Shown here one piece after another: positions 21,051-58,170 of a DNA stretch of 64,000 nucleotides. The translations under genes were made by a program, and so were the position numbers. The notes under the pieces were generated by a model, which saw only the letters and a program-made list of their open reading frames with translations, was not told where the DNA came from and did no database searches. Origin of the DNA: Eledone cirrhosa (taxonomy: Eukaryota); contig OZ024741.1 in NCBI GenBank assembly GCA_964016885.1, forward strand, positions 177,134,001-177,198,000, written 5' to 3'. The stretch's first letter is position 1, and each line of letters begins with the position of its first letter.

Positions 21051-21073
21051 ATATGTGTGTATATATGTATGTG

Positions 21074-21106
<33 letters not shown>

Positions 21107-24485: not shown

Positions 24486-24555
24486 TAAAAAACCTCGCAA
24501 AACTAATTCATCGCCGTTATGTAGAGGGTCGGACGCCATGCTTTCCAGCATAGTT

Positions 24556-30000: not shown

Positions 30001-30050
30001 ATAATAATAATAATAATAATAATAATAATAGCAATAATAATAATAATAAT
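30001..30050. repeat. (AAT)n tract, left boundary of the retrotransposon nest; other tracts at 36003-36032, 39297-39362, 41761-41838, 47865-47890, 51139-51159, 57168-57190
   Basis: Directly visible; every element junction in 30001-57201 is an (AAT)n tract. Confidence 0.97.
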
Positions 30051-33000
30051 GTTTTCTTTATTAACCACAAGGGTTCACATAAAGTAGACATTAAGGACAG
30101 TACAGGACAATACAGGACGGTACAAATGGGCATTTCTGCGTGTAAAAAAACAGAGGTTGAAATAAAATAACAAAGAAAAATTCCCCAATAGGGGGGAGAC
30201 TTCCAAGGGACATTTGTGGAGAAAGCCCATTAAAAGACCACAGTGGCCCTGACCACCAGGGCAAGTGCCCTCTCCCAGTTTTCCACCTTTAATTTACAGA
30301 CACATACTCAGAGAAGGCCCATTCATTCGGGCTATACTTGCTTCTCTCACCCATCTTTCAACAAAATGCTGGGAAGAGAGCACTTCCCTCTCTACCCTTA
30401 TTTTCCTTTTCAAATGAAATTTGAAAAAGTTAATCAGGGCATCACCGAAGAGGTAAGTGCTCGTCTTCAGCCCTTTCAAACGTGTCCACCATACTATCTC
30501 TTTCGCCATGGCCACCAGACAGATAAAAACTGCCTGCCCTTCCAGGCTAAAGGAAGGGGGCGGGGCAATCCTCACGATGGACACAGCTGATAGCTGGATA
30601 GGTCCTACACGTGACAGCAGGTGTTCGACATAAACCCACAAGTCAGCAATGCTCGGACAATGGACGAGTGCGTGCAGGACGGTTTCGTCGCCCTGCGCGC
30701 ATCTCGGACATGCCCGGCTGACGGCACCACCATGCCTGTAGAGTTTATCCCGAACTGGCAAAGCTCCTCGGTAGCACTGCCAGGCCAGGGATTTCTGGAA
30801 GTTGTCCATAGGCCCCGGCCAGAAAGTCCTTCCGAAGAGATTGGCTAGTTGATTTTCGTCGACGCCTAGAGTTTCTCCAAGTACGTCGTCGCTCTTCCCC
30901 TCCACTAATCCCCTATAGAACGCCAAGGTGGAGTTTCCACCGATCACATTGCCCGATTGGTCGAGGGCTGTGAGCGCCTGAAGACATTCCAGTCTCCAAG
31001 CGCTCCCTCTCGGTCTTCGCTTGACCCAGGACTGCAGCTCCGTCAAGGAGACGAGCTAGGGAAAAACGTGTCTTGCAAACGGCGACCACACCTGATCACC
31101 GTCGAGGAAAATGTGGAGATGTCGTAGCCTGAGCGCGTGTCTGCGCATCATCAGCCACGGCATGCCCAGCCCTCCACGTAGCGGGTGTTGACAGCAGATG
31201 GACCGCCTGACCATCGGAGCGCGTCCCTTCCACAAGAAGCGAAAGAGCAAACGCTCCAGCACAGTCAGGCGGGGCTTAGGACAAGGTACGACGGTCAGGC
31301 GGTAGTAGATGACGGATGCGATGTACGCATTCGCCACCTCCGCTCGACCTTTCAGGGATAGCTTCCTCTCGGCCCATTTCTGGGTGAGAGAAGCCACCCT
31401 GCTCGTCACCTCGTCCCAGTTTTTGTCCGTCTGGAGGTCTGGACCGAACCAGACCCCTAGCAATTTAACCGGTCCGTCCGTCCAGCGCCCGACTACGCTG
31501 TTGGACGGCATGGACCTGCCTCTCCAGGTGCCGAGCTGCAGGCCCACTGACTTTTCCTGGTTGATCATTGCTCCTGTCACCGCTTCGTATTCTCTTAGTG
31601 TAGTGCCGATCGCCTCGATGTGTTTGGCTTTCGACACCACTACGGTGACATCGTCGGCATATGCTGACACGGATCTTCCGCATCCTAGTTCGCGCGGGAC
31701 CCCCTCAACGTCTCCAGTTTGTGCAGTAATGGTTCGAGAGTCAATACGTACAATAGGGACGAGAGGGGACATCCTTGGCAGACCGAGCGCATGATGTTGA
31801 ACGGTTCCGAAAGGTGACCGTTCACTCTCACTACAGAGCAGATGTCGCTGTGCATGGCAGCGATCCAGCCTCTGAAGACGGGCCCAAAGCCAGCCGCCCT
31901 CAGGACTGCCGTTAGGTAACGATGGTCGACCCTATCGAAAGCTTTCGACTGATCTAAATTGATCAAAGACCCACCCGTGCCAGGTTCTTTAGCTACCCTC
32001 TCTATGATGTAGCGCATGAGGTGAAGGTTGTCGTGGATGGATCTGTCGGGAATGGCGCATGTCTGCGCCTCTCCCACCAGACCACCAACGACAAGCGCCA
32101 ACCTCTTTGCTAGCACCTTGGCCAAAATCTTGAACTCTGTGTTTAGCAGAGTTATGGGCCGGAAATTGTCTATGTTATCCCCCTTGTTCGGATCCTTTCT
32201 CAGCAGTGCCACCGCTCCTCGGCTCACAGAACTGGGAAATCTCCCGTTCTGTTGCCAGTTGCAGTAGACGTCCGCCAAGAGGCCTCCGAACAAGTCTAGG
32301 GCAGACCATCCAAACCAGGCGATTTACCCCTTGTGCAGCCAGTCATTGCCTCCCTTACTTCGGCTCAGTGGCCGAGATCCGCGGCAGTCCGTCGAGGTAG
32401 ACACTAAAGTCCATCCCTCTACCCGGCCCCCCGCTGCCCCCGAACAGCTGAGCGAAGTGTCGCTGAAAAGCTTCACACATTTGCACGGGATCGAGTAGCA
32501 TGCGCCCGTCGTGGTCCACCAAAGACCGGATCGTGGCTTTGTTGCCACGACGCGCCTCCGCCACTCGGGCCCATTGAACGGCTTTCGTCCCCTCGTGTCT
32601 GAGAGCACGCAGACTAGCTCTGACAACGCAGCCTTCGTGCTTTGCCTTGAAGAATTGGTCAAGGGCCAATTTCGCCGCAAGCACGTCGGTCGCAATGCCT
32701 TTGCTAAGCGCCTCGTCTAAATGTAAAACTAGTTCTCCCTCTGCTCTATTTTTCTCTATTGCTAAAGCCTTACTAAACCTAATCGATTCTATTCTAATCG
32801 CTCTTTTCAGAGCAAACCACCACTTGTTGTTGACGATGGCCCCCGTCAACGCCCGCTTAACTAGTTCGCTAATCCGGTCTCTGTAGGCCTTGCGCGCTGG
32901 TAAGGACGCGTTTAGCTTCCAGTAGCCGGGTCCTCGTCTATGAAGCCTATCTAAGTCAAGCACACAGGTCACGAATTTGTGGTCCGTGTAGCTGACTATC

Positions 33001-36000
33001 TTGAATTGTGGACAGCCTATGCTAGACCTATCTATTTCCCTACAAAATACTCTATCTAGATATGATCTGGATGACCCTATGCGGTTTGTCCAAGTCCACA
33101 TTGGCACTTTCGGGAAATCCAATCGGTACCTGTCAGACAGTTCAAAACGCTGAGCAGGTTGGTGAGGCTCTTGCACCCTCCACCCCTATCCGCTAATCCC
33201 ACACAGTCCCAGCGTGCATCTAAGATCCCGTTCCAGTCGCCCACTAACACTAAAGAGTGGGACGTTCCAAGAAAGGTCTCCAGACGCCGGAAGAAATCAG
33301 GCCGCCCTGCTCCTGTCGGGGCATAGACGGCCACTAGCCTGAAAGCTTGCCCGTCTCCGCTGGTCACGTCCAGCAGCACCAGCTTACCCTCTGGGTCCAG
33401 GAAGATGGCCCGTATGGCGAGATCCAAACCTCTCCGAAAAAGCACAGCAACTCCTCCACCCGATCCAGGACGGCTGGGAGATGCGTACACATCGTAGCCG
33501 CCGAAGATCGGTGCGAAGGCCCGTGCTTCGGAGATTCTGGTCTCGCTGATGGCCACTACATCTATGTTTAGTGACCTGAGGTCGTTGAGCAGGTGACCCT
33601 GCTTCCATGACGACCCCAAGCCACGCGCATTTATGCTGCCTATTCTGAGTGAGGTCATGTTTAAAATAGAGTGGAAAAGATGGGAAAGACCACTTACCGT
33701 ACTTTTGGTAGAGGAGGGATGGTTTTTACATCCCTTTTCACTTGATCGTCTGGTGAAGGGACCGTTGAATCGTCCCTTCGGCTGGTCGTCGGCTCTTCTA
33801 AGAGAATGTCTGAATATACTCTTCGATTGATGGTTCCTCCTAGGTCCCTGAAATGACCAACTGCGTTGGGGAATTTCGTTTTAATGTTTGTGTATTGTTT
33901 CTGTGCTATTTTTAGCAGTCTTATGTTAGTTGGCGTTTTGATTGGTGCTGGTATTATGTAGTCCTGTTGTGAAATGTCTGTGTGTTCAATTATGTAAGTC
34001 ATTAGTTTCTTGTTGTGTGTTTATTGCCGTGCATTTGTTTTTCTGGGGGTGGGGTATGGTTCTGCTATTTTCTTGTCGTTGTTGCTGGGTGTGTGTGTTT
34101 TGTTGTTGTGTTTGCGATGTTGGTGCTTGTGGTGGTGGTGTTGAAGGTGTTGTTGGCAGTGGGGTTGTCGCCGGTGGTGATGGTGGTGCTAGTGTGGGTG
34201 GTGATGGTGTTGGTGGTGTTGCTGCTGTGGGTCTCTTTGCAGTAGACTTTACCCTTTTCTCATTTCTTTCCTCCCTTTTCAAAGGCGACGATGCGCTGCT
34301 TCTGCGTTTGTGCCTTCTTGCGACCTTTTGCCATCCCTCTCCCACCTCACACTCCATGTCTGATTCTGTGAGGTCGGGGAGGGGTACCAGCTCCACTCTT
34401 TCACTTGTTGTTGTTGGTGATGTTTGCACTGGAGTCTCTGTTGCAGCTGCATTTGGTATTGCTGTTGTTGTTGTTAATATTTCCATTGCTGCTGCTTTTT
34501 TGATTTCCGTGGAGTGGGTATGGGTGCCACGGACCTATCGTTCCTGGTTGCCGCTTGTTCTGTTGCTGGTAGCCGTGGAGCCGGATTCGGAAGGAGAGGG
34601 GTTTTCTCCTTTCTCAGGGTCTTCTCGTTGCAGAAGGCCCTGAGGTGAGTCTTCGATCCACAGCGAAAGCATTTCGGGCGTTTGCCCTCAACACTTATGG
34701 GCAGTTGAGTGCCGTTATCGAAGTCTATCATATCCGGGATAGCTTCGATGCACTCCTGGTTGGTTTGGATTAGCATCTCAATGGAGGAGCCGACCCAATC
34801 TTCTCTTACTTTTTTCTGTACTTGCAGTACAGTTCTTTTGTCCTCGATTCCGACGAGGACAGACGCGGCCAGCCAAGAAGGGGTCATTCCGGGGGTGACG
34901 TGGGTCAGTTTGACCCTCACAATTTTTTGCCCGCAGTAGGAGGGCACCAACACCATTTCCTCGCTCCTTAGGGTCACTACTGATTGGGCCTTTGCCTCCT
35001 GGGGTTTGGCAAAAAGTACGTCTACGGTGGCATATTTTTTGCCTCGGGTGATGTGCGTTTTCCGCTGCCACACAGACCCCAAGGCTTTTTGTATTTGGGC
35101 CTCTGTGGCTCTTTCCACCCTACGGGATTTTGTACTTACTGTACGGTACGTGACCGTACAGTGCTGTTGGTTTTCGAAAAATGTTTCCGCTGCCTTGCAG
35201 ATTGCTCGGTGTCCGTTCTTTGTCACCATCTTCTTCGCTTCCTCTAATTCCTCATTTGTTATGAGGATTGTTTCCAAGTTTTTCGCAATACCTGCAAATG
35301 AGATTGGTTTTTCTCTGCTGTTGTTGTTGTCGTCAGAGCTGCTGGTACTTGTGTTGTTGCTGCAGGTACTACGACTACTGCCTCCGCCGCTGTTGCTGTG
35401 GTTGTTGTTGGTGTTGCTGCTGCTAATGCTGTTGTTGTTTATGCTGCTGGTGATGCTGTTGCGGCTGCTACTGTTGTTTTCATTGTCACTGTTGCTGTTG
35501 TTATTACGGCTGCTACTGCTATTATTCCTGACGTCAGACGAATGAACTGGGTTTTCGTATTTCCCGAACACCTGTTTCGTCGCTGTCGTCGTCGTCGTGG
35601 AGAAACCTTGCACGCTTTGCACGAGACTTTTCTTTTCTTTCGTCACTTGCAAAAGAGAAGGGAGGGAGAGAGACACATTTAAAGAAGGGAGGGAGAGAGA
35701 CAATCTTCTCTCTGCTGTAGTGATGATTGAGGAAGAAGAAGACGGAATGAGTGGGAGTGACGTATGAAATTTCTTTTTCGTAGCTTTGTTGTTTTTTGTT
35801 CAAAATGAAATTTTGGGTACAAAACCCCAACAACTGGTTATTTAACCCCGAAGGGCCAAATAACGGACAGAAAGACCCCTCTCACGAGGAGGAGGGTGTC
35901 TTTATCAACAATTTGGTTCAAGTTTTAAACAATTTACAATTGTTTTAACGGTTAAAAATTACTATACCTTACAGAGCCGAGCCTCCGTCAACCATGGCAT

Positions 36001-36002
36001 TC
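30051..36002 (-). mobile_element. Full-length Tx1/L1-clade non-LTR retrotransposon, copy A (ORF1 and ORF2 disrupted)
   Basis: Colinear with copy B; ORF2 split into 33077-33658, 32355-33176, 31685-32293, 31056-31772 and 30294-31046; two small deletions near 32297 and 32360. Confidence 0.93.
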
Positions 36003-36032
<30 letters not shown>

Positions 36033-36033
<1 letters not shown>

Positions 36034-39000
36034 TATTGATCAGATCAAGTTATTAGCACTAAGTCAGCGAAGGCAAAATGAAACATGTGTCAGTGAAAAC
36101 GAGGTAAATTGTAACACTTTGAATCCCAGGGTTGGGGCAGAATCACTGGCAACAGAACAAATTAAAGAAAGGATCGAACAAGTGGAGGGAGTGCATGCTC
36201 AAGATGAAACTCCAAATGGAAATAATGAGATCGTAAATGATAAAGAAATGAATGAGAATAAACTTGCCAACTTGAAGGATGAAATTATGATCGAATGGAT
36301 GAAAATGAAAGAATCTGACATGGGGCAACGAGACACCCTCCCTAAGATCCAGAACTCCAAACAGAACCAAAAGATAATACACAAGACTGACATAATTCTC
36401 AAAAACATTATCATCACAAACAAACTAAACATTACTTATTTAAATCATCTCTATTATGCATCGGCTAAAGTCACCACTCACTTATGTGGAGTGAAGATGA
36501 AAAAACAAAGGAATTCCCACAAGAAATCTACTTGGCAAAGAGAACATCAATCGCCAAATAAACCTTCTCCGATCTGACATAGAAATTTTAACAAACTATA
36601 AAGTAGGTGAACATGTTAAATAAACTAAACTTAGAAAATTGAAAAAAAGTACAGTATAAAATCAACAAGTGACATAGACATGCTGATAGAAATAATCAAG
36701 CAAAAAGTGTCGGTCAAAGCTGCTCGTATAAGGCGCTAAATCAATACCACCCAAGGAGGAAGTGCAAGAATTCTGGGAAAAGATCTGGGCCGAAGAAAAA
36801 GTTCATAACATACATGCCCCATGGATAGACAGACAAATGAAAGATACAGCTCACCTTGAGGAACAAATATGGGAAAATATAACAGTTGAACAGTTGCGCT
36901 TGGCTCTAAGAAAAACCAGCAAATGGAAATCCCCAGGAAAAGACAAAATACAAAACTTTTGGATAAATGCCTTCACAGAGTCTCATGAGCTGTTAGCCCA
37001 ACTTTACAATGAAATAGTTAAGGAGCCAGAAAAGATACCATCATGGCTAGTTAACGGATTACATTCCTGCTTCCGAAGAATGATGAGACAAACAATCCCA
37101 AAAATTACAGATCGATAACTTGCTTGACCACAATGTATAAAATTTTAACATCAGTCCTAACTGAATACACATATGACCACCTGATAACAAATGACCTATT
37201 TCCCATTGAGCAGAAAGGGTGTAAACGAGGCTCATATGGCTGTAACGATCAGCTTCTGGTTAACAAATTGATACTGGAAGATTTTCATAATAGACACAAC
37301 AATCTATCGATTGCTTGGATAGATTATAAAAATGCATTCGATAGTTTGCCACACAGTTGGATTGAAAAATGGTTGGAGATTTTCAAAATATCCCCCGTTG
37401 TCAGGAGGTTTTTGTCATTCAGTATGAAGACATGGAAAACGACACTCCTTTTGAATAGTGAAACAAAATCACTGGAAGCTGGAGAAGTTAATATTAATTG
37501 TGGAATTTTTCAGGGTGACTCTTTATCACCGCTTTTATTCTGCATCGCACTTATACCATTAAGTAAAATGCTCAATGATGACAAAACCATTAATCACTTG
37601 TTCTACATGGATGACCTGAAACTATTTGCAAAAAATGATGAACAATTGCAAGGGCTATTATCCACTGTGAAGCAGTTCAGTGATGACATTAAAATGGGTT
37701 TGGACTAGATAAATACGCCAAAGCAACGTTCACCAGATGCAGGCTGCTGAAGAGTTCAGACATTAATCTTGATCGGGGGAACGTGATAAGAGAACTTGAT
37801 CAAGAAAAAGCTTACAGATATCTAGGTGTTTGTGAAGGAGACGGAATCAAGCACTCGACAATGAGGGAAAGGATAAGGAAGGAATGTTACCGCAGAGTAA
37901 GAGCAATCTTAAGAACGGAATTGAATGCAAGGAATAGGATCGATGCCATAAACACGCTTGCCATACCTGTAGTAAACTACAGTTACAATGTCATCAACTG
38001 GTCAAGCACACAGATCCGTAGGCTCGATACAACAATTCGAAAATTCTTAACCATGCACAGAATGCATCACCCTAAGGCAGATATAGATAAAATATATCTC
38101 CCTAGGAAAGAAGGAGGACGTGGGTTAATGCAGTTAGACATTGCGTTGAAAACTGCAACAATTGGATTATCTACATATCTAAGGGAATCACATGATTGGA
38201 TGATCAAACTCGTTTTGAAACACGAAAGCATCAAAAGATCCTATTCAATTACAAAAGATGCACAAAGATACAGTAATGGACTACAAATTTCAGAAGTCCT
38301 ATTTACTGCTGAAATGGAAAACACAGAAAAAGCAAAGCAGGTAAAAGTAACTGCAAAGAAAGAACTGCTACAGAAACTGGCTAAGAAATGGCAAGAAAAG
38401 CCTTTGCATGGAAAATACCCAGAGCGAGCTAACAATCCTGATGTTGACAAAACTTTAACCCATCAGTGGTTGGCATCCTCTGGACTGAAATCGGAGACTG
38501 AAGGACTGATTATATCAGCACAAGATCAGTGTCTGCCCACAAAAAATTACCAAGCCAACATAATAAAAAATGGATGCAGCCCATTATGCTGTGTATGCAA
38601 AAAACAACCAGAGACCATTGACCATATAATTTCAATGTGCAGTCCTATAGCTCCAACCGAATACCTAAACAGGCATGACAGAGCTACACAATACATACAT
38701 TGGATAATGTGTAAGCATTTTGACCTGCCCCATCAAAAGAATTGGTGGGAGCATCAACCACCTCCCATACATGAAAAAGATCACATCCCAATCTTGTGAA
38801 ACTTTAGCATCCAAACAGACCGAAAAATAGATGCAAATAGACCTGATATAATATTGAAGGACTTTAACAATAGGGTATGCCTGCTAATTGATATGTCTGT
38901 TCCAATAGACAAGAATGTATCTATAAATAATTTGAAAAATTGAGCAAGTATAAGGACCTGGAGATAGAAATTGGAAAAATGTGGAAATTGAGAACTAAAA

Positions 39001-39295
39001 CAATACAAGTGGTTGTAGGCGCTCTGGGAATGATACCTAAGGGGTCTAATGAATACTTATCGCAAATCCCAGGAAACCCGCGTATAGGAGAAATACAAAA
39101 GATAGTACTAATGGGAACTGCCCATATACTAAGGAAGATTCTGTCAATATAAGTACATTACAAGTCCAAACACTAAAGATGCATGTGTGAGTATGTATGT
39201 TCTTTCTTGAACATGGCGGACCTTGTTGTCTCTTGATGTCAATGGTTGTGACTTGGTGATAACTCGTATGAACATAAAGACAGATAAATGCAACT

Positions 39296-39296
<1 letters not shown>
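36033..39296 (+). mobile_element. R4/Dong-clade RT-RLE element, family 1 copy 1 (5'-truncated, disrupted)
   Basis: FQGDSLSPLLF, YMDD, HPKADID..LPRKEGGRGL, CCHC, RHD, NRPD, KYKDL, VVGALG in broken frames; (TAA)n at the 3' end. Confidence 0.92.
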
Positions 39297-39362
<66 letters not shown>

Positions 39363-39365
<3 letters not shown>

Positions 39366-41755
39366 GAAAGATCAGAACCTTGGTGGAAGAAACGACTGAA
39401 GGGAAAGAAAGAGGCAACGACTAAGACATTCTGGAGAGGAATATTGGAGGAGAATGTTTAACATAATGACCAGGCAGTGTGGATTGAGACTGTACAAAAG
39501 GAGATTAGTGAACAGGAACACCAACAAACTGATTTGAGTATGATAGATGAAACTCTTAAGGAGCAGGCCAAAAAACTAACCAACTGGAAACCATCAGGCC
39601 CAGATGGTGTGCAGGGGTATTGGATTAAAAATATAACATCCCCCCCCCCCCCGAAACTGACAACAATGTTCAATGACTGCTTGATGTCAGGTGAGGTACC
39701 AGAGTGGTTGACAAAAGATACCACAGTTCTGGTAATGAAAAACCGAATCAAGCTTAATGATGTTACCAACTATAGACCTTTCACATGTCCCTATTGTGGA
39801 AACTGTTGACAAGCATTGTGTCTGAGGAAATCTACCATCACCCCCACATAAACAACTTGTTCACGGACGAACAGAAATGATGCCGAAAGAAGCCCCGTGG
39901 TACAAAGGACCACTTACTTATTGATAAGATGGTAATGAGGAAATGCAAGGAAATGCCATGTGATGGATAGACTACAAAAAGGCATTTGGTGCCCCATTCT
40001 TGGATCACCAAATGCCTAGAGATCTTCAAGGAGGCAGATAACATCAGACAGTTGTTGAGCAAGAGTATGAACTCCTGGAAAACAGAGTTAACATCAGCTG
40101 GAGAATCCTTTGGAGGTGTGAAGATCAAGAGAGGTATCTTCCAGGGAGATAGTCTGTCCCCGCTGTTGCTTGTCGTTGCCCTGATGCCCCTGACCATTAT
40201 ACTGCGAACAGTGAGAGCAGGATACAATTTGGGAAAGGGAGAGCTTACCATCAATCACCTCTTCTTCATGGACGATCTTAAGCTCTCCGGGAAGAGTGAG
40301 AAGGAGTTGGATGTGCTTGGTGACACTGTCCGTATTTTCAGCAATGATATATGTATGCAATTTGGTATTAGTAAGTGTGGAGTCATTGTGATGAAGAGGG
40401 GTAAATTGAGCAGAAGCAATGGAATCTAGGTCGCAACAGGTAAGATGATAAAGGAAATTGACACTGAAGAAAGATACTAGTATTTGGGGGTTCTGGAGGC
40501 TGATGACATCAAGAACAAAAAAACGAAGATCTGAATCCATTCGGAGAGTAAGGAGCGTATTAAAGTCACATCTGAACAGTAGGAATGCCATAAGTGCAAT
40601 AAATTCCGGAGCTGTGTCTATTATTAGGTACAGTGCGGGAATTCTGAGATGGAATGTTGCTGAACAAAAATAAATGCATAGGAAGACTAGGAAGCTATTG
40701 ACTATCTACATGTTCCACAAGAGGAGTGATGTCGATAGACTCTACTTAAGGAGATCTGAAGGTGGAAGAGGTCTTATCAGTATAGAGGACTGTGTTCAGA
40801 TGGAGAAAAACAACCTACACAAATACGTGACTGATACTAAGGAGCCAATGCTCAGAATTGTATTGAAGGAGACGACAATAGACCAGGGGATGTCCAAGGA
40901 GGAAATAACAACAAGGAGAAAGAGCAGCCTTCATGAAAAATCCCTTCATAGTACCTTCTTTGAGAAAACTGAATTCGAAGATCCACAGACATGGAACTGG
41001 TTGAAAAGAGGAGAACTTAAAAAGGCTACAGAAGGAATGCTAATAGCTGCGCAAGAGCAGGACCTCAAAACGAAGTTTGTGAAACACCATATTTACAAGG
41101 AGAGGCTGGCCCACTGTGCAGGATCTGTGGAGAGAGGAGATTGTGGTTCACATTGTATCCGAGTGTAAACACCTAGCCCAGACTCACTATAAAGGCTGGA
41201 GACATGATGTGATGGGCCTGGTGATCCATTGGCACCTATGCAAAGTAAAAAGTTTACCACATTCTGAGAAGTGGTATGAGCATAAGCCAGAGTCGGTGAT
41301 GCAAAATGATCAGGTGAAGGTGCTGTGGGATTTTAGGATACACACGGACAATAAACTGGAACACAATTGACCTGACCTGGAGGTTTTGGACAAAGACAAA
41401 GATCGTGCCTGATTGTAGATGTAGCCTGCCCATTTGCCACGAGATTGCAAGAAAAGGAGAGGGAGAAAATTAACCGATACCAGGACTTAAAGTGGGAGGT
41501 AAAAAGGATTTGGAACTGCCATGAAGTCAAAGTGGTCCCGATTGTCATAGGCGCACTAGGTACTATCTCAAGGAGTTTCCAGGGATGGTTAAAGAAGATT
41601 ATTCCAGCCCGCTTTTTGGAACACTTCAAAAGGCATGCTTGCTGGGGTCAGCAAGAACCCACCGATACGTCCTGAATATCTGACGCTGCAGGTAGCAGCT
41701 TAATATTCATTTCAACAAACTTTCCAGTTAACCAACATCAATGACTGAGACTCAA
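39363..41755 (+). mobile_element. R4/Dong-clade element, family 2 (5'-truncated, more decayed)
   Basis: GPDGVQGYWIK, FQGDSLSPLL, FMDD, HKRSDVDRLYLRRSEGGRGL, RHD, KINRYQDL, VVPIVIGALG; (AAT)n at the 3' end. Confidence 0.9.
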
Positions 41756-41760
41756 ACAAC

Positions 41761-41840
<80 letters not shown>

Positions 41841-42100
41841 TTTCTTTATTAACCACAAGGGTTTACATAAAGTAGACATTAAGGACAGTGCAGGACAATG
41901 CAGGACGGTACAAATGGGCATTTCTGCGTGTAAAAAAACAAAAACAGAGGATGTAACAAAAATAACAATGAAAATAACAATGAAAAATTCCCCAATAGGG
42001 GGGAGACTTCGGAGGGACATTTGTGGAGAAAGCCCAGTAAAAAGCCACAATGACCCTGACCACCAAGGCAAGTGCCCTCTCCCAGTTTTCCACCTTTAGT

Positions 42101-45520: not shown

Positions 45521-45555
45521 GTTTAAAATAGAGTGGAAAAGATGGGAAAGACCAC

Positions 45556-47651: not shown

Positions 47652-47698
47652 GTTTTTTTGTTTAAAATGAAATTTTGGGTACAAAACCCCAATAACTG

Positions 47699-47726
47699 GT
47701 TATTTAACCCCGAAGGGCCAAATAAC
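47699..47726 (-). promoter_or_regulatory. 12-bp stem with C(UUCG)G tetraloop in the Tx1 5'UTR
   Basis: GTTATTTGGCCC-TTCG-GGGTTAAATAAC; loop and most of the stem retained in copies A and C. Confidence 0.55.
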
Positions 47727-47889
47727 GGACAGAAAGACCCCTCTCACGAGGAGGAGGGTGTCTTTATCAACAATTTGGTTCAAGTTTTAAACAATTTACA
47801 ATTGTTTTAACGGTTAAAAATTACTATACCTTACAGAGCCGAGCCTCCGTCAACCATGGCATTCAATAATAATAATAATAATAATAATA

Positions 47890-50800
47890 AAGAAAGGAGT
47901 GAAAAAGTGGAGGGAGTGCATGCTCAGGATGAAACTCCAAATGAAAATAATGAGATCGTAAATGATAAAGAAATGAATGAGAATGAACTTGCCAACTTGA
48001 AGGATGAAATTATGATCGAATGGATGAAAATGAAAGAATCTGACATGGGGGAACGAGACACCCTCCCTAAGATCCAGAACTCCAAACAGAACCAAAAGAT
48101 AATACACAAGACTAACATAATTCTCAAAAACATTATCATCACAAACAAAATAAACATTACTGACTTAAATCATCTCTATTATGCATCGGCTAAAGTCACC
48201 ACTCACTTATGTGGAGTGAAGATGAAAAAACAAAGGAATTCCCACAAGAAATCTACTTGGCAAGATAACATCAATCGCCAAATAAACCTTCTCCGATCTG
48301 ACATAGAAATTTTAACAAACTATAAAGTAGGTGAACATGTTAAACAAACTAAACTTAGAAAATTGAAAAAAAAGTACAGTATAAGATTAACATGTGACAT
48401 AGACATGCTGATAGAAACAATCAAGCAAAAAGTGTCGGCCAAAGCTGCTCGTATAAGGCGCTTTGAAAAACGATCTAGACTCTATAAGGACAATAATATG
48501 TTCAAAAACAACCAAAGAAACTTCTACAGAAAAATTGGTAAGTCAACAATAACTGCTAAATCAATACCACCCAAGGGGGAAGTGCAAGAATTCTGGGAAA
48601 AGATCTGGGCCGAAGAAAAAGTTCATAACATACATGCCCCATGGATAGACAGACAAATGAAAGATACAGCTCACCTTGAGGAACAAATATGGGAAAATAT
48701 AACAGTTGAACAGTTGCGCTTGGCTCTAAGAAAAACCAGCAAATGGAAATCCCCAGGAAAAGACAAAATACAAAACTTTTGGATAAATGCCTTCACAGAG
48801 TCTCATGAGCTGTTAGCCCAACTTTACAATGAAATAGTTAAGGAGCCAGAAAAGATACCATCATGGCTAGTTAACGGATTACATTCCTGCTTCCGAAGAA
48901 TGATGAGACAAACAATCCCAAAAATTACAGATCGATAACTTGCTTGACCACAATGTATAAAATCTTAACATCAGTCCTAACTGAATACACATATGACCAC
49001 CTGATAACAAATGACCTATTTCCCATTGAGCAGAAAGGGTGTAAACGAGGCTCATATGGCTGTAAGGATCAGCTTCTGGTTAACAAAATGATACTGGAAG
49101 ATTGTCATAATAGACACAAAAATCTATCGATTGCTTGGATAGATTATAAAAAAGCATTTGATAGTTTGCCACACAGTTGGATTGAAAAATGTTTAGAGAT
49201 TTTCAAAATATCCCCCGTTGTCAGGAGGTTTTTGTCATTCAGTATGAGGACATGGAAAACGACACTCCTTTTGAATAGTGAAACAAAATCACTGGAAGCT
49301 GGAGAAGTTAACATTAATTGTGGAATTTTTCAGGGTGACTCTTTATCACCGCTTTTATTCTGCATCGCACTTATACCATTAAGTAAAATGCTCAATGAAA
49401 CAAAACATGGATATAGAGTCTATGACAAAACCATTAATCACCTGTTCTACATGGATGACCTGAAACTATTCGCAAAAAATGATGAACAATTGCAAGGGCT
49501 ATTATCCACTGTGAAGCAGTTCAGTGATGACATTAAAATGGAGTTTGGACTGGATAAATGCGCCAAAGCAACGTTCACCAGAGGAAAGCTGCTGAAGAGT
49601 TCAGACATTAATCTTGATCGGGGGAACGTGATAAGAGAGCTTGATCAAGAACAAACTTACAAATATCTAGGTGTTTGTGAAGGAGACGGAATCAAGCACT
49701 CGACAATGAGGGAAAGGATAAGGAAGGAATGTTACCGCAGAGTCAGAGCAATCTTAAGAACGGAATTGAATGCAAGGAATAGGATCGATGCCATAAACAC
49801 GCTTGCCATACCAGTAGTAACCTATAGTTACAATGTCATCAACTGGTCAAGCACAGAGATCCGTAGGCTCGATACAAAAATCCGAAAATTCTTAACCATG
49901 CACAGAATGCATCACCCTAAGGCAGACATAGATAGAATATATCTCCCTAGGAAAGAAGGAGGACGTGGGTTAATCCAGTTAGACATTGCGTTGAAAACTG
50001 CAACAATTGGATTATCCACATATCTAAGGGAATCACATGATTGGATGATCAAACTCGTTTTGAAACACGAAAGCACCAAAAGATCATATTCCATTACAAA
50101 AGATGCACAAAGATACAGTAATGGACTACAAATTTCAGAAGTCCCATTTACTGCTGAAATGGAAAACACAGAAAAAGCAAAGCAGGTAAAAGTAACTGCA
50201 AAGAAAGAACTGCTACAGAAACTGGCTAAGAAATGGCAAGAAAAGCCTCTGTATGGAAAATACCCAGAGCGAGCTAACAATCCTGATGTTGACAAAACTT
50301 TAACCCATCAGTGGTTGGCATCCTCTGGACTGAAATCGGAGACTGAAGGACTGATTATATCCGCACAAGATCAGTGTCTGCCAACAAAAAATTACCAATC
50401 CAATATAATAAAAAATGGGTGCAGCCCATTATGCCGTGTATGCAAAAAACAACCAGAGACCATTGACCATATAATTTCAATGTGCAGTCCTATAGCTCCA
50501 ACCGAATACCTAAACAGGCATGACAGAGCTGCACAATACATACATTGGATAATGTGTAAGCATTTTGACCTGCCCCATCAAAAGAATTGGTGGGAGCATC
50601 AACCACCTCCCATACTTGAAAAAGATCACATCTCAATCTTGTGGAACTTTAGCATCCAAACAGACCGAAAAATAGATGCAAATAGACCTGATATAATATT
50701 GAAGGACTTTCAAAGGAGGGTATGCCTGCTAATTGATATGTCTGTTCCAATAGACAAGAATGTATCTATAAAAACATTTGAAAAATTGAGCAAGTATAAG

Positions 50801-50998
50801 GACCTGGAGATAGAAATTGGAAAAATGTGGAAATTGAGAACTAAAACAATACCAGTGGTTGTAGGCGCTCTGGGAATGATACCTAAGGGGTCTAACGACT
50901 ACTTATCGCAAATCCCAGGAAACCCGCGTATAGGAGAAATACAAAAGATAGTACTAATGGGAACTGCCCATATACTAAGGAAGATCCTGTCAATATAA
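47890..50998 (+). pseudogene. R4-clade RT + CCHC + RLE reading frame, open except for one frameshift at ~48878
   Basis: ORFs 47856-48938 and 48944-50998 join as WLVNG/ITFLLPKNDETNNPKNYRSITCLTTMYKILTS; YMDD; CRVCKKQPETIDHIISMC; NRPDIILKD..LIDMSVP..KLSKYKDL. Confidence 0.92.
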
Positions 50999-51138
50999 GT
51001 ACATCACAAGTCTAAACACTAAGGATGCATGTGTGAATATGTGTGTTCTTTCTTGAACATGGCGGACCTTGTTGTCTCTTGAGGTCACTGGTTGTGACTT
51101 GGTGATAACTCGTATAAACATAAAGCAAGATAAATGCA
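47890..51138 (+). mobile_element. R4/Dong-clade element, family 1 copy 2 (5'-truncated)
   Basis: Highly similar to 36160-39296; bounded by (AAT)n. Confidence 0.94.
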
Positions 51139-51159
51139 AATAATAATAATAATAATAAT

Positions 51160-54100
51160 GAATTCTTTATTAACCACAAGGGTTTACATAAAGTAGACAT
51201 TAATGACAGTGCAAGACAATACAGGACGGTACAAATGGGCATTTCTGCGTGTAAAAAACAAAAACAGAGGATGTAACAAAAAATAACAATGAATGATTCC
51301 CCAATAGGGGGAGACTTCGGAGGGACATTTGTGGAGAAAGCCCAGTAAAAGGCCACAATGACCCTGACCACCAAGGCAAGTGCCCTCTCCCAGTTTTCCA
51401 CCTTTAATTTACAGATATATACTCAGAGTAGGCCCATTCACTCGGGCCATTCTTGCTTCTCTCACCCATCTTTCAACAAAATGCTGGGAAGAGAACACTT
51501 CCCTCTCTACTCTGAGTTTCATTTTCAAATGAAATTTGAAAAGGTCAATTAGATCATCACCGAAGAGGTAAGTGCTCGTCTTCAGCCCTTTCAATCGTGT
51601 CCTCCATACTATCTCTTTCGCCATGTCCACCAGACAGATAAAAACTGCCTGCCCTTCCGGGCTAAAGGAGGAGGGCGGGGCAATCCTCACGATGGACTCA
51701 GATGATAGCCGGATCCGTCCTAAACGCGACAGCAGGTGTTCGACATAAACCCACAAGTCAGCAATTTTCGGACACTGGACGAGTGCGTGCAGGACGGTTT
51801 CGTCGCCCTGCGCGCATCTCGGACATGCCCGACTGACGGCACCTCCATGCCTGTAGAGTTTATCCCGAACTGGCAAGGCTCCTGTAGCACTGCCAGGCCA
51901 GAGATTTTTGGAAGTTGTCCATAGGCCCCGGCCCGAAAGTTCTTCCGAAGAGATTGGCTAGTTGATTTTCGTCGACGCCTAGAGTTTCCCCAAGTACGTC
52001 GTCGCTCTTCCCCTCCACTAATCCTCTATAGAACGCCAAGGTGGAGTTTCCACCGATCACATTGCCCGATTGGTCGAGGGCTGTGAGCGCCTGAAGACAT
52101 TCCAGTCTCCAGGCGCTCCCTCTCGGTCTTCGCTTGACCCAGGACTGCAGCTCCGTCAAGGAAACGAGCTGGGGAATTACGTGTCTAGCAAACGGCGACC
52201 ACACCTGATCACCGTCGAGGAAGAGGTGGAGATGTCGTAGCCTGAGCGCGTGCCTCAGCATCATCAGCCACGGCATGCCCAGCCCTCGACGTAGCGGGTG
52301 TTGACAACAGATGGACCGCCTGACCATCGGAGCGCGTCCCTTCGACAAAAAGCGAAAGAGCAAACGCTCCAGCGCAGTCAGGCGAGGCTTAGGACAAGGT
52401 ACGACGGTCAGGCGGTAGCAGATGACAGACGCAATGTACGCCTTAGCCACCTTCGCTCGACCTTTCAGTGATAGCTTCCTCTCCGCCCATTTCTGGGTGA
52501 GAGAAGCCACCCTGCTCGTCACCGCGTCCCAGTTTTTGTCCGTCTGGAGGTCCGGACCGAACCAGACCCCTAGCAATTTAACCGGTCCGTCCGTCCAGCG
52601 TCCGATGATGCTGTTGGACGGCATGAACCTGCCCTTCAGGTGCCGAGCTGCAGGCCCACTGACTTTTCCTGGTTGATCATTGCTCCTGTCACCGCTTCGT
52701 ATTCTCTTATTGTAGTGCCGATCGCCTCGATGTGTTTGGCGTTCGACACCACTACAGTGACATCGTCCGCATATGCTGACACGGAACTTCCGCATCCTTG
52801 TTCGCGCGGGACGCCCCTCAACGTCTCCAGTTTGTGCAGTAATGGCTCAAGAGTCAATACGTACAAGAGGGACGAGAGGGGACATCCTTGGCGGACCGAG
52901 CGCATGATGTTGAACGGTTCCGACAGGTGACCGTTCACTCTCACCACAGAGCAGATGTCGCTGTGCATGGCAGCGATCCAGCCTCTGAAGACGGGCCCAA
53001 AGCCAGCCGCCCTTAGGACTGCCGCTAGGTAACGCTGGTCGACCCTATCGAAAGCTTTCGACTGATCTAAATTGATCAAGGACCCACCCGAACCAGGTTC
53101 CCTAGCTACCCTCTCTACGATGTATCGCATGAGGTGGAGGTTGTCGTGGATGGATCTGTCGGGAATGGCGCATGTCTGCGCCTCTCCCACCAGACCACCA
53201 ACGACAAGCGCCAACCTCTTTGCTAGCACCTTGGCCAAAATCTCGAACTCTGTGTTTAGCAGAGTTATGGGCCTAAAATTATCTATGTTATCCCCCTTGT
53301 TCGGATCCTTCCTCAGCAGTGCCACCGCTCCTCGCTCACAGAACTGGGAATTCTCCCGTTCTGTTGCAGTTGCAGTAGACGTCCGCCAAGAGGCCTCCGA
53401 ACAAGTCTGGCATCTGTACGTAAATTACATAGGGCAGACCATCCAACCAGGCGATTTACACCTTGTGCAGCCAGTCATTGCCTCCCTTACTTCAGCGGCT
53501 GTTGTCGGCTTTTAGCAACACTTCCCCTCAGTGGCCGAGAGCCGCGGCATTCCGTCGAGGTAGACACTAAAGTCCATCCCTCGACCCGGCTCACCGCTGC
53601 CCACGAACAACTGAGCGAAGTGTCGCTGAAAAGCTTCACACATTTGCCCGGGATCGAGTAGCATGCGCCCGTCGTGGTCCACCAAAGACCGGATCGTGGC
53701 TTTGTTGCCACGACGCGCCTCCGCCACTAGGGCCCATTGAACGGCTTTCGTCCCCTCGTGTCTGAGAGCACGCACCATTGCTCTGACAACTCAGCCTTCG
53801 TGCTTTGCATTGAAGAATTGGTCAAGGGCCAATTTCGCCGCAAGCACGTCGGTCGCAATGCCTTTGCTAAGCGCCTCGTCTAAATGTAAAACTAGTACAC
53901 ACTCTGCTCTATTTTTCTCTATTGCTAAAGCCTTACTAAACCTAATGGATTCTATTCTAATCGCTCTTTTCAGAGCAAACCACCACTTGTTGTTGACGAT
54001 GGCCCCCGTCAACGCCCGCTTAACTAGTTCGCTAATCCGGTCTCTGTAGCCCTTGCGCGCTGGTAAGGACGCGTTTAGCTTCCAGTAGCCGGGACCTCGT

Positions 54101-57100
54101 CTATGAAGCCTATCTAAGTCAAACACACAGATCACGAATGTGTGGTCCGTGTAGCTGACTATCTTGAATTGTGGACAGCCTATGCTAGACCTATCTTTTT
54201 CCCTACAAAATACTCTATCTAGATATGATCTGGATGACCCCATTGCGATTTGTCCGAGTCCGCATTGGCACATTCGGGAAATCCAATCGGTACCTGTCAG
54301 ACAGTTCAAAACGCCTGAGCAGGTTGGTGAGGCTCTTGCACCCTCCACCCCTATCCGCTAATCCCACACGGTCCCAGCGTGCATCTAAGATCCCGTTCCA
54401 ATCGCCCACTAACACTAAAGAGCGGGACATTCCAAGAAAGGTCTCCAGACGCAGAAGAAATCAGGCCGCCCTGCTCCTGTCGGGGCATAGACGGCCACTA
54501 GCCTGAAAGCTTGCCCGTCTCCGCTGGTCACGTCCAGCATCACCAGCTTACGCTCTGGGTCCAGGAAGAGGGCCCGTATGGCGAGATCCAAACCTCTCCG
54601 AAAAAGCACAGCAACTCCTCTCCCCGATCCGGGACGGCTGGGAGATGCGTACACATCGTAGCCGCCGAAGATCGGTGCGAAGGCCCGTGCTTCGGAGATT
54701 CTGGTCTCGATGATGGCCACTACATCTATGTTTAGTGACCTGAGGTCTTTGAGCAGGTGACCCTGCTTCCATGACGACCCCAAGCCACGCGCATTTATGC
54801 TGCCTATTCTGAGTGAGGTTATGTTTAAAATAGAGTGGACAGATGGGAAAGACCACTTACCGTACTTTTCGTAGAGGAGGGATGGTTTTTACATCCCTTT
54901 TCACTTGATCGTCTGGTGAAGGGACCGTTGAATCGTCCCTTCGGCTGGTCGTCGGCTCTTCTATGAGTATGTCCGAATATACTCTTCGATTGATAGTTCC
55001 TCCTAGGACCCTGAAATCACCAACTGCGTCGGGAATTTCGTTTTAATGGTTGTGTATTGTTTCTGTGCTATTTTTAGCAGTCTTATGTTAGTTGGCGTTT
55101 TGATTGGTGCTGGTATTATGTAGTCGTGTTGTGAAATGTCTGTGTGTTCAATTATGTAAGTCATTAGTTTCTTGTTGTGTGTATTTATTGCAGTGCATTT
55201 GTTTTTCTGGGGCTGGGGTGTGGTTCTGCTATATTCTTGTCGTTGTTGCTGGGTGTGTGTGTTTTGTTGTTGTGTTTGCGATGTTGGTGCTTGTGGTGGT
55301 GGTGTTGAAGCTGTTGTTGGCGGTGGGGCTTTCGCCAGTGGTGATGGTGGTGCTAGTGTGGGTGGTGATGGTGTTGGTGGTGTTGCTGCTGTGAGTCTCT
55401 TTGCTGTAGACTTTACCCTTTTCTCATTTCTTTTCAAAGGCGACGATGCGCTGCTTCTGCGTTTGTGCCTTCTTACGACATTTTGCCTTCCCTCTCCCAC
55501 CTCACACACCCTGTCTGATTCTGTGAGGTCGGGGAGGGGTACCAGCTCCACTCTTTCACTTGTTGTTGTTGGTGATGTTTGCACTGGAGTCTCTGTTGCA
55601 GCTGCATTTGGTATTGCTGTTGTTGTTGTTAATATTTCCACTGCTGCTGCTGTTTTTGATTTCCGTGGCGTGGGTATGGGTGCCACGGACCTATCGTTCC
55701 TGGTTGCCGCTTGTACTGTTGCTGGTAGCCGTGGAGCCGGTTTCCGAAGGAGGGGGGTTTTCTCCTTTCTCAGGGTCTTCTCGTTGCAGAAGGCCCTGAG
55801 GTGAGTCTTCGATCCACAGCGAAAGCATTTCGGGCGTTTGCACTCAACAATTATGGGCAGTTGAGTGCCGTTATCGAAGTCTATCACATCCGGGATAGCT
55901 TCGATGCACTCCTGGTTGGTTTGGATTAACATCTCAATGGAGGTGCCGACCCAATCTTCTCTTACTTTTTTCTGTACTTGCAGTACAGTTGTTTTGTCCT
56001 CGATTCCGACGAGGACAGACGCGACCAGCCAAGAAGGGGCCATCCCGGGGGGGGGGGGGGGGTCAGTTTGACCCTCACAATTTTTTGCCCGCAGTAGGAG
56101 GGCACCAACACCATTTCATCGCTTTTTAGGGTCACTACGGATTGAGCCTTTGCCTCCTGGGGCGTGGCAAAAAGTACGTCTACGGTGGCATATTTTTTGC
56201 CTCGGGTGATGTGCGTTTTCCGCTGCCACACAGACCCCAAGGCTTTTTGTATTTGAACCTCTGTGGCTCTTTCAACCCTACGGGATTTTGTACTTACTGT
56301 ACGGTACGTGACTGTACAGTGCTGTTGGGTTTCGAAAAATGTTTCCGCTGCCTTGCAGATTGCTCGGTGTCCACTTTTTGTCACCATCTTCTTCGCTTCC
56401 TCTAATTCCTCATTTGTTATGAGGATTGTTTCCAGGTTCTTCGCGATACCTGCAAACGAGATTGGTTTTTCTTTGCTGCTGTTGTTGTTGTTGTCGTCAG
56501 AGCTGCTGTTACTTTTGTTGTTGCTGCTGGTACTACGACTACTGCCTCCGCCGCTGTTGCTGTGGTTGTTGCTGGTGTTGCTGCTGCTAATGCTGTTGTT
56601 GTTTATGCTGCTGCTGCTGCTGCTGCTGTTGCGGCTGATACTGTTGTTTTCATTGTCACTGTTGCTGTTGTTATTACGGCTGCTACTGCTATTATTCCTG
56701 ACGTCAGACGAATGAAATGGGTTTTCGTATTTCCCGCACACCTGTTTCGTCGTTGTCGTCGTGGAGAAAACTTGCACGCTTTGCACGAGACTTTTCTTTT
56801 CTGTCTTCGCTTGCGAAAGAGAAGGGAGGGAGAGAGACACATTTAAAGAAGGGAGGGAGTGAGACAATCTTCTCTCTGCTGTAGTGACGATTGAGGAAGA
56901 AGAAGACAGAATGAGTGGGAGTGACCTATGAACATTCTTTTTCGTAGCCATGTTGTTTTTTTGGTTTAAAATAAATATTGGGTACAAAACCCCAATAAGC
57001 AGATATTTAACCCCGAAGGGCCAAATAACGGGCAGAAAGACCCCTCTCACGAGGAGGAGGGTGTTTTTGTCTACAAGTTGGTAAAAGTTTTAAACAATTT

Positions 57101-57167
57101 ACAATTGTTATAGTGTTCAAAATTTACAATACCTTACAGAGCCGAGCCTCCGTCAACCATAACATTC
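51160..57167 (-). mobile_element. Full-length Tx1/L1-clade retrotransposon, copy C (multiple indels)
   Basis: Colinear with copy B from 5' end to 3' end; ORF2 in many pieces; followed by (AAT)n(GAA)n to ~57201. Confidence 0.93.
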
Positions 57168-58007
57168 AATAATAATAATAATAATAATAAGAAGAAGAAG
57201 ATATCTAGTGTTTTCAGCTGAGTAATTTCTGTGATCCGTAATTCTTCAGATCTCTATTCAAAACAACACAAATTTGTTCCTCAAAACGCGCAACTAATCA
57301 TATATGAACACTTTTTTCACAAGAATCCTCAAATTAACTATTCATTCCCTTTATTTCTGTTAAACCCCTCAACACTTCTCGTCTTGTAACATGCTACTCA
57401 CTCAAATTCAATCTGTACTCTAAAATACTTGCTAAATTTTTTTAAGGCATACTGTTCCTCATGACTTCCTCGTCGCATTGTTGCTGTTATTATTAGAATA
57501 GACTTTGAAGCCACAAGTGTATCATCTATTCCTGTTCAAGATTTAGTCTATTGTCCAACATGTTAGTACTTTTGTTTTCAGATTGGAGGTCATAATTATT
57601 TAGTATTTCTAGCTTTTAGAAATTCCACGTGCATAATGACTCTTAAGATCATCTATATATCTGGTGAGGTTGTTTAATTTGAAATATTCCAGTGACTTCA
57701 GTAGATATATTTCTAACGTAAATAATATTAACAATTTCTCCTCGCATGCAAGCATCTACTAAGGATCATCGAAATGAAGTAGCTGCAGATTTATCCACTA
57801 CATTGTGTTTTTCTTACAGCTTTACTTAGAGAAAATTTGCAACGGAAGAGAGAGAAAAATAAAAACAACGAACTATAATAACAACTATTACGAACAGAAA
57901 CTCTACTGTTTGAACCCTTATTGATTCTACGCATACTATACATTGCAATAAATAAATGCACATTGCGTCCGACTATACGAATCATTATATTTCTCTCTCA
58001 CATAGAG

Positions 58008-58170
58008 TTACGCCCCTTTATGATCTGAGTTCAAATCCTGCTGAGGTTAAATTTGCCTTTCATCCTTATGGGGTCAATGACATAAAGTATCAGTCACGTA
58101 CTGGGGTTGATTTGAACGGCTATTCCCTCCCCGAAAATTGCTGCCCTTGTGCCTATGTAAGAAACCATTA
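58008..58170 (+). mobile_element. SINE fragment (B-box + Nin-like domain)
   Basis: GAGTTCAAATCCTGCTGAGGTTAAATTTGCCTTTCATCCTTATGGGGTC; homologous to 24556-24660. Confidence 0.75.

What the first reader, a model, noticed from the sequence alone, without database searches (positions are those of the whole stretch)
30001..57201. 27-kb two-clade retrotransposon nest built on one (AAT)n microsatellite with strict opposite strand polarity
Seen: six elements lie end to end, each junction a pure (AAT)n tract, in the order Tx1(-), R4(+), R4(+), Tx1(-), R4(+), Tx1(-). None is inserted inside another. All APE-encoding Tx1 copies face one way and all RLE-encoding R4 copies face the other. Known: Dong (R4 clade) targets (TAA)n, and some Tx1-clade families (Kibi, Koshi) target other microsatellites. 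Inference: two unrelated endonucleases converge on the same duplex but nick opposite strands. Each insertion leaves target on both sides, so the locus is a self-renewing landing pad. I cannot confirm from sequence alone that this pairing is undescribed.
Basis: partly seen in the sequence, partly recalled or inferred. Interest (0 to 1): 0.85.

Follow-up and report, generated by a model that had tools for sequence, protein, structure and literature searches.

The report
Two retrotransposon clades share one microsatellite
In this genome, likely an octopus relative's, two unrelated kinds of jumping gene sit by the thousand in the same (AAT)n repeat, almost always facing opposite ways, likely because their enzymes cut opposite strands; the 27-kb stack here is a typical example, and the Tx1-like partner's AAT preference was not found in the papers searched.

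Summary
Confirmed. Six LINEs lie end to end between seven (AAT)n tracts: three full-length APE-type (Tx1-like) copies on the minus strand and three 5'-truncated RLE-type (Dong/R4-like) copies, from two families, on the plus strand. The polarity holds genome-wide. 2,461 of 2,552 Tx1-like 5' ends follow (ATT)3. On the forward strand, 3,847 of 4,916 Tx1-like 3' ends precede (ATT)3 and 10 precede (AAT)3; 2,251 of 2,412 Dong 3' ends precede (AAT)3 and none (ATT)3. Target-site duplications that start at ATT indicate target DNA rather than an element tail. The nest is not exceptional: 37 of 49 Dong ends in the first 44 Mb of contig C1 have a Tx1-like end within 15 kb (about 6 expected), 35 in opposite orientation. 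Each ingredient has a precedent: Dong in TAA repeats (molluscs included), Tx1 families in other microsatellites, APE/RLE convergence (Keno/Utopia), and opposite orientations in one repeat (TRAS/SART). Not found in ten literature searches: an ATT-specific Tx1-like lineage, its sharing of tracts with Dong, and a SINE with the same tail and polarity. Opposite-strand nicking is inferred, not assayed. New variant of a known kind.

The parts
29525..30002 (-). Remnant (~70% identity to paralogues) of the ORF1 region of an older Tx1-like element, ending at the first tract; likely an earlier member of the nest
   Evidence: paralogues L202/L203/L206/L207 continue past this point without an AAT tract and carry Tx1-like ORF2 nearby
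30003..30050 (+). (AAT)9 AGC (AAT)6 tract
30051..36002 (-). A1: full-length Tx1-like LINE, 5,952 nt, ORFs broken
36003..36032 (+). (AAT)10 tract, head-to-head junction A1/B1
36033..39297 (+). B1: Dong/R4-like LINE, family B, 5'-truncated at 1515 of 4,894, ORF broken
39298..39360 (+). (AAT)21 tract
39361..41760 (+). C: second Dong/R4-like family, 5'-truncated, degenerate (6.6% from the nearest fetched copy)
41761..41838 (+). (AAT)26 tract, tail-to-tail junction C/A2
41839..47864 (-). A2: full-length Tx1-like LINE, 6,026 nt; ORF2 (APE + RT + zf-RVT) open at 42101-45715; ORF1 with a CCHC knuckle, split into two frames
47865..47888 (+). (AAT)8 tract, head-to-head junction A2/B2
47889..51138 (+). 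B2: Dong/R4-like LINE, family B, 5'-truncated at 1643; RT + CCHC + PD..D..K RLE in the 707-codon frame 48875-50998
51139..51159 (+). (AAT)7 tract, tail-to-tail junction B2/A3
51160..57167 (-). A3: full-length Tx1-like LINE, 6,008 nt, ORFs broken
57168..57200 (+). (AAT)7 followed by (AAG)4; single-copy flank beyond

Best explanation
The 27-kb array is one of many nests in which an APE-type Tx1-like LINE family and RLE-type Dong/R4-like families sit in the same (AAT)n/(ATT)n microsatellite in opposite orientations, likely built by separate insertions in which the Tx1-like APE nicks the AAT strand and the Dong RLE nicks the ATT strand. Shown: the domain content, the genome-wide flanks and polarity, the fixed junction phase, short duplications starting at ATT, and clustering. 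Inferred from target-primed reverse transcription: the nicked strand primes cDNA, so an element followed by (ATT)n was primed on the AAT strand and one followed by (AAT)n on the ATT strand. Inferred: the Tx1-like nick falls at the T/A step of AAT^AAT, if its RNA carries no AUU tail. Inferred: each insertion leaves target on both sides (a roughly 11-16 bp duplication for Tx1-like copies, then slippage), so nests gain targets and grow by preferential attachment, with some local duplication or conversion on top.
For: Domains: APE residues invariant in 12 of 12 relatives; L1 ORF2p is the nearest solved protein; R2 proteins are nearest by sequence and fold; PD..D..K aligned to R2Tg. Polarity: A 5' ends 2,461 of 2,552 directly after (ATT)3; A 3' ends, forward strand, 3,847 of 4,916 before (ATT)3 against 10 before (AAT)3; B 3' ends 2,251 of 2,412 forward before (AAT)3, 0 on either strand before (ATT)3. 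Of 115 segments between same-polarity tracts, 45 had Tx1-like hits, all minus, and 46 had Dong-like hits, all plus; 25 had neither. Phase: 71 of 74 A 3' flanks begin with ATT at the same position; 34 of 34 5' ends of the sister family follow (ATT)3. Target rather than tail: a 16-bp duplication starting at ATT in L130, similar ones in L022 and L055, and 3' flanks with a single ATT (L040). Truncated Dong copies start after AAT in 30 of 41 (B) and 26 of 41 (C) rows, none after ATT. Separate insertions: A2 is 0.45% and B2 0.6% from copies on another contig but 2.4% and 2.8% from their array neighbours; B1 and B2 have different truncation points. Clustering.
Against: No biochemistry. 5'-truncated Tx1-like copies are less clean than full-length ones: the script scored 8 of 34 as ATT-flanked, 25 as neither and 1 as opposite. 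By eye, after dropping 8 rows as chain artefacts or duplicates, 12 of 26 are clearly ATT or ATT-duplication, 3 weak, 2 (CTT)n, 8 none and 1 opposite. 22% of forward A 3' ends did not match (ATT)3 within 2-8 nt. For B1 the nearest outside copy (2.78%) is no closer than B2 (2.78%), and for A1 and A3 the margin is small. A nest on C1 holds two 100% identical B pieces with the same junction, so duplication or conversion also builds nests. No spanning long read and no empty orthologous site.
Confidence: 0.85

Rival explanations
1. The Tx1-like family has a loose, L1-like T/A-step preference and an (AUU)n RNA tail or tail-target annealing. The (ATT)n at its 3' end is largely self-made, and only Dong is a true microsatellite specialist, colonising those tails.
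For: 8 of 26 curated truncated copies have no ATT at the 5' junction, 2 abut (CTT)n, and some sit in satellites with only an ATTAT motif. LINEs that end in TAA repeats are known (I element, PMC3747384 passages).
Against: 96% of full-length 5' ends follow (ATT)3. Duplications begin at the first ATT, and some 3' flanks carry one ATT only. V(AAT)5 starts number 65,958 in 3.0 Gb, so by my estimate tracts are of the order of 0.1% of the genome. Caveat: upstream ATT on full-length copies could be co-transcribed.
Confidence: 0.08
2. The array arose mainly by local tandem duplication, unequal exchange or gene conversion of an A-B unit, not by six insertions.
For: The order A-B ... A-B repeats. A2 is mosaic, its 5' half closer to A1 and its 3' part closer to A3. 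An exact A-B junction repeat exists at C1:55.44 Mb.
Against: B1 and B2 differ in truncation by about 130 nt and by 2.8%. A2 and B2 are 4-5 times closer to copies on another contig than to their neighbours. Duplication does not explain the genome-wide polarity.
Confidence: 0.05
3. The array is an assembly mis-join of high-copy repeats through short microsatellites.
For: No record in four public runs spans it (contigs only).
Against: Neighbouring copies differ by 2.4-4.8% with private indels. The same junction types recur on other contigs. The right flank is single copy.
Confidence: 0.02

Closest known systems
Dong (R4 clade): Bombyx mori Dong, DongAg, DongBg of the snail Biomphalaria, Darwinula Dong
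   Same: RT with a C-terminal CCHC and RLE in one ORF; target (TAA)n, stated to be the case in most insects, molluscs and cnidarians (PMC7998251 passages; PMC3812793 passages). Dong-R4 is the largest recently active LINE class in Octopus vulgaris (PMC13282606 Table 1).
   Different: Nothing fundamental: B and C behave as ordinary members. In the passages read, Dong is not described as sharing tracts with an APE element.
Microsatellite-specific Tx1 families: Kibi (TC)n, Koshi (TTC)n, crocodilian Tx1 in (TTCC)n/(TTTC)n
   Same: APE-type two-ORF LINEs that prefer a microsatellite (PMC4494074 passages and section 15).
   Different: The unit here is (ATT)n, not a pyrimidine tract; the host is likely a mollusc; the copy number is near 10,000. 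No ATT/TAA-specific Tx1 family appeared in the searches; Figure 3 of PMC4494074, its supplements and Repbase were not seen.
Keno (Tx1, APE) and Utopia (RLE) in U2 snRNA genes
   Same: [quoted passage not shown]
   Different: They share the same 3' flank, hence the same orientation; the target is a low-copy gene; no mixed arrays are described in the passages read.
TRAS and SART in (TTAGG)n of Bombyx
   Same: Two families insert into one simple repeat in opposite directions; TRAS1 EN nicks between T and A (PMC7265360 passages).
   Different: Both are R1-clade APE elements (clade recalled) confined to telomeric repeats. Here the partners are of different endonuclease classes and the nests are interstitial and genome-wide.

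Membership tests
APE-type L1-group LINE (family A) | ORF2 with N-terminal APE, RT and C-terminal zinc motif | tested here: met
   Pfam Exo_endo_phos 86-274, RVT_1 575-818, zf-RVT 1038-1090; L1 ORF2p best solved match, E 2e-52; catalytic N, E, Y, D-x-N, D and D-H invariant in 12 of 12 relatives (residue roles recalled)
Tx1 clade (family A) | Separate ORF1 with a CCHC knuckle upstream of ORF2 | tested here: met
   713-codon frame with C-x2-C-x4-H-x4-C in intact copy L109; no Pfam family at the curated cut-off; that this marks Tx1 is recalled
Tx1 clade (family A) | Target sequence preference (over 20% of flanks of one type, the criterion of PMC4494074) | tested here: met
   96% of 5' ends and 78% of forward 3' ends at (ATT)3; criterion
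Tx1 clade (family A) | RT phylogeny grouping with Tx1, Keno, Kibi and Koshi rather than L1 | not testable with these tools
RLE-type LINE, R4/Dong (families B, C) | Single ORF with RT, C-terminal CCHC and PD-(D/E)xK RLE, no APE | tested here: met
   1,216-codon ORF in full-length B; CCHC, PD, D, K and KY in 38-40 of 40 relatives; aligned to the R2Tg RLE (weak domain score of 11.5 bits); model matches R2 proteins best, E 6e-26, TM 0.66; no APE Pfam hit. C was judged from frame translations only
Dong lineage | Insertion in (TAA)n | tested here: met
   2,251 of 2,412 forward B 3' ends; truncated 5' ends 30 of 41 for B and 26 of 41 for C, uncurated rows
Dong lineage | Divergent N-terminal Myb/SANT-like domain without zinc fingers (PMC7998251) | tested here: inconclusive
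   No Pfam hit in the N-terminal region; the paper needed HHpred; no N-terminal zinc finger seen by eye
Dong lineage | HDV-like ribozyme at the 5' end (Bombyx Dong, PMC3774820) | tested here: inconclusive
   No credible Rfam hit; an uncalibrated pattern search found none
R4 clade | RT phylogeny grouping with R4, Dong and Rex6 rather than R2, NeSL or HERO | not testable with these tools
   No named reference among the homologues

The most novel reading that the evidence does not exclude
Octopod (AAT)n tracts are the shared niche of a strand-partitioned guild: at least three Tx1-like subfamilies and a SINE that borrows their 3' tail on one strand, two Dong families on the other, both enzymes cutting the same TpA step from opposite sides. 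The guild flanks most of the genome's ~66,000 longer tracts and builds self-renewing nests of 30-40 kb that could underlie the unexplained TE hotspots of octopus genomes. The Tx1-like APE would be a new trinucleotide-repeat-specific nickase.
Probability: 0.4. Interest if true: 0.62.

Novelty: new variant of a known kind. Interest (0 to 1): 0.45.

Why it matters
It adds a target, (ATT)n, to the Tx1-like repertoire and gives a high-copy natural case of an APE and an RLE sharing one 3-bp repeat from opposite strands, with intact young copies of both available for biochemistry. It offers a testable mechanism, targets renewed at each insertion, for LINE clustering in octopod genomes, where Dong-R4 and L1-Tx1 are both recently active and hotspots are reported without a targeting analysis (PMC13282606: no occurrence of 'target' or 'nested' in the main text). 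It also suggests that AAT microsatellite markers in these animals often lie against mobile elements. It does not introduce a new kind of element or chemistry.

Tried and rejected
A DNA search with the A 3' end found nothing because common words are skipped; patterns were used instead. The family C pattern matched only a minority variant (59 hits), so there is no genome-wide count for C; its 30 loci served only as extra junction samples. Variable-gap patterns double-count on the reverse strand, so only forward counts are used. Relatives in metagenome contigs were distant (mostly 22-33% identity) and their flanks were not analysed. Atlas and cluster look-ups gave no clade names. Contigs of four public runs did not span a tract or show an empty site. 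Ribozyme searches were negative and uncalibrated. Two look-ups of earlier findings were empty. Rejected: a special, unique locus; three copies of one R4 family; pure tandem duplication of this array. Fifteen segments between tracts of opposite polarity were set aside from the polarity count; several contain inverted SINE pairs or long unrelated DNA.
Full report
Observation. The window holds seven runs of (AAT)n between 30003 and 57188 and no run of four or more units elsewhere. Between them lie A1(-) 30051-36002, B1(+) 36033-39297, C(+) 39361-41760, A2(-) 41839-47864, B2(+) 47889-51138 and A3(-) 51160-57167. The five internal junctions are pure tracts of 10, 21, 26, 8 and 7 units. The left tract has one AGC interruption and the right one runs into (AAG)4. 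The A copies share both ends and differ by 2.4-4.8%. B1 and B2 differ by 2.8% and start about 130 nt apart. C has no nucleotide match to B in the window.

What the elements are. A2 carries an open ORF2 with APE, RT and zf-RVT domains. Human L1 ORF2p is its closest solved relative and the usual APE catalytic positions are invariant in 12 of 12 aligned relatives (roles recalled). Intact copies elsewhere have a 713-codon ORF1 with a CCHC knuckle. Full-length B is 4.9 kb with one 1,216-codon ORF. R2 proteins are its closest solved relatives by sequence, profile and predicted fold, and its C-terminal PD..D..K motif aligns with the R2Tg RLE. C is a second, degenerate family of the same build. The names Tx1 and Dong/R4 rest on architecture and target; no named reference was available for a tree. 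The genome is 3.0 Gb in 1,796 contigs. The closest named homologue of A ORF2 is from Argonauta hians, at 73% identity over 48% of the query, so the host is likely an octopod.

Genome-wide polarity. A 20-mer at the A 3' end occurs 9,555 times (4,916 forward, 4,639 reverse). Of the forward matches 3,847 are followed within 2-8 nt by (ATT)3 and 10 by (AAT)3 (reverse counts are inflated by the variable gap and are not used). The A 5' end occurs 2,552 times, 2,461 of them directly after (ATT)3. The B 3' end occurs 2,412 times forward, 2,251 followed by (AAT)3; none on either strand is followed by (ATT)3. In 80 fetched 10-kb loci, chosen around A and B ends, 115 distinct segments lay between tracts of the same polarity. 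45 had Tx1-like protein hits, all antisense to AAT; 46 had Dong-like hits, all sense; one segment had both and 25 had neither. 15 mixed-polarity segments were set aside. A sister family shares 96% of the ORF2 region but has a different 5' end and ORF1, and a third is 82% identical; both follow the same polarity.

Target or tail. Truncated Dong copies start after AAT in 30 of 41 (B) and 26 of 41 (C) rows and never after ATT (rows uncurated, some C copies appear twice, and part of the listing was cut while the tallies were shown). Full-length Tx1-like copies follow ATT in 28 of 28 rows. Truncated ones are weaker: 8 of 34 by script. By eye I dropped 8 rows (L111, L136, L098, L042, L048, L124, L148, L133: chain breaks, recombinants with a diverged relative, an internal deletion, duplicates or no intact 3' end). 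That leaves 12 of 26 clearly ATT or an ATT-starting duplication, 3 weak, 2 (CTT)n, 8 none and 1 opposite. The best single case is L130, where the same 16 bases starting with ATT stand on both sides; L022 and L055 are similar. Some 3' flanks hold only one ATT, which a fixed long tail would not give. The 3' flank begins with ATT in the same phase in 71 of 74 junctions.

Nesting. In the first 44 Mb of contig C1, 62 of 100 A ends have another within 15 kb (6.5 expected if uniform), and 34 of 37 adjacent pairs are on the same strand. 37 of 49 B ends have an A end within 15 kb (3.2 expected if uniform; mean 5.7, maximum 14 in 2,000 local shuffles), 35 of them in opposite orientation. Nests as long as this one or longer were read at C1:37.10-37.14 Mb and C1:55.42-55.46 Mb. 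Of the first 30 V(AAT)5 sites on C1 (65,958 in the genome), 6 lie within 120 nt of an A, B or C family match and 14 of a SINE match (one shared). By eye one more abuts a Tx1-like tail and three another recurring tail; 7 showed nothing.

How this array formed. A2 is 0.45% and B2 0.6% from copies on another contig, against 2.4% and 2.8% from their neighbours. A1 (1.65-2.2%) and A3 (3.3%) are only slightly closer to outside copies, B1 ties, and C is 6.6% from its nearest. With the different truncation points this favours separate insertions over time, C early and A2 and B2 late. Duplication or conversion does occur in other nests: two B pieces at C1:55.44 Mb are identical over 815 nt with the same junction. 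The left flank is a remnant of an older Tx1-like ORF1 region on the minus strand, ending at the first tract, and is probably an earlier member. The right flank is single copy. Public contigs could not span the array or show an empty site.

Mechanism. From established target-primed reverse transcription, the nicked strand primes cDNA, so elements followed by (ATT)n were primed on the AAT strand and those followed by (AAT)n on the ATT strand. Opposite-strand nicking is therefore a corollary of the orientation, not an independent observation. The fixed phase would put the Tx1-like nick at the T/A step if its RNA has no AUU tail. TRAS1 EN cuts a T/A step and L1 EN does too (recalled). Target left on both sides of each insertion would let nests grow by preferential attachment. 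Weaker selection against insertions next to existing elements may add to this and was not tested.

Comparison with the literature. Dong in (TAA)n is known, molluscs included (PMC3812793 passages; PMC7998251 passages). Tx1 families target (TC)n, (TTC)n, (TTCC)n and (TTTC)n (PMC4494074 passages and section 15). Keno (APE) and Utopia (RLE) converged on one U2 site (PMC4640811 passages). TRAS and SART enter (TTAGG)n in opposite directions (PMC7265360 passages). Dong-R4 and L1-Tx1 are abundant or recently active in octopods (PMC13282606, first third of the text and passages; PMC8967140 passages), without a target analysis in what I read. Passages of PMC3747384, PMC3774820 and PMC4758252 were also read. 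Ten searches returned no report of an ATT/TAA-specific Tx1 family or of mixed Tx1/Dong arrays. The library lacks most subscription papers. Kojima and Fujiwara 2004 was seen only as a citation, and Repbase, Figure 3 of PMC4494074 and all supplements were not seen; any of these could hold such a family.

Verdict. The Dong half is known, and the two conceptual points have precedents. The likely new parts are the ATT-specific Tx1-like lineage at about 10,000 copies, its strand-partitioned sharing of tracts with Dong, and a SINE with a matching tail. New variant of a known kind; interest 0.45.

Noticed in passing
L130:7577-7762, L128:7571-7757; related pieces at window 24521-24683 and 58001-58105: An abundant ~185-nt SINE-like element (tRNA-like head by eye; no Rfam test on it) whose last ~22 nt resemble the Tx1-like 3' end and which sits in (ATT)n with the Tx1 polarity, often on both sides. 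Candidate non-autonomous partner of family A; near 14 of the first 30 tracts on C1.
   Followed up: partly
L095:2476-8345 against window 41839-47864: Sister family with a different 5' UTR and ORF1 (about 55% protein identity in the conserved part) joined to a 96% identical ORF2 region: an ORF1/5' swap like those of L1.
   Followed up: partly
L176, L182, L189, L198, L129: Another recurring sequence directly after AAT tracts (starting GAAATTATTGTGTACAG), likely the 3' end of a further element with the Tx1 polarity.
   Followed up: no
L157, L161, L150, L158, L160 (about 1 kb upstream of the B and C ORFs): The long 5' regions of families B and C are mosaics that share pieces; a self-complementary stretch lies just before the B start codon.
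   Followed up: partly
L165, L150, L139, L008, L119, L114, L117; window 57189-57200: (AAG)n/(CTT)n runs often lie between the AAT tract and a 5' junction; full-length B itself begins with an AAG-rich motif.
   Followed up: no
L138, 5' junction of a truncated Tx1-like copy: Flanked by two CCCTAA-type telomere-like units.
   Followed up: no
G000:C1:55.436-55.456 Mb (L286, L287): A-B junction repeated with a 100% identical 815-nt B piece while the A copies differ by 1.1%: local duplication or conversion inside a nest.
   Followed up: partly
L107:2235-2442, L134:3792-3963, L144:1268-1440, L060: Polarity switches within nests sit at inverted SINE-tail pairs; L060 is the one Tx1-like 5' junction on (AAT)n.
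   Followed up: no
window 18675-21458 and 3400-6700: A long inverted arrangement (mirror-image ORFs and microsatellites around ~20035) and a strongly G-skewed GC-rich stretch with long frames but no Pfam hit.
   Followed up: no
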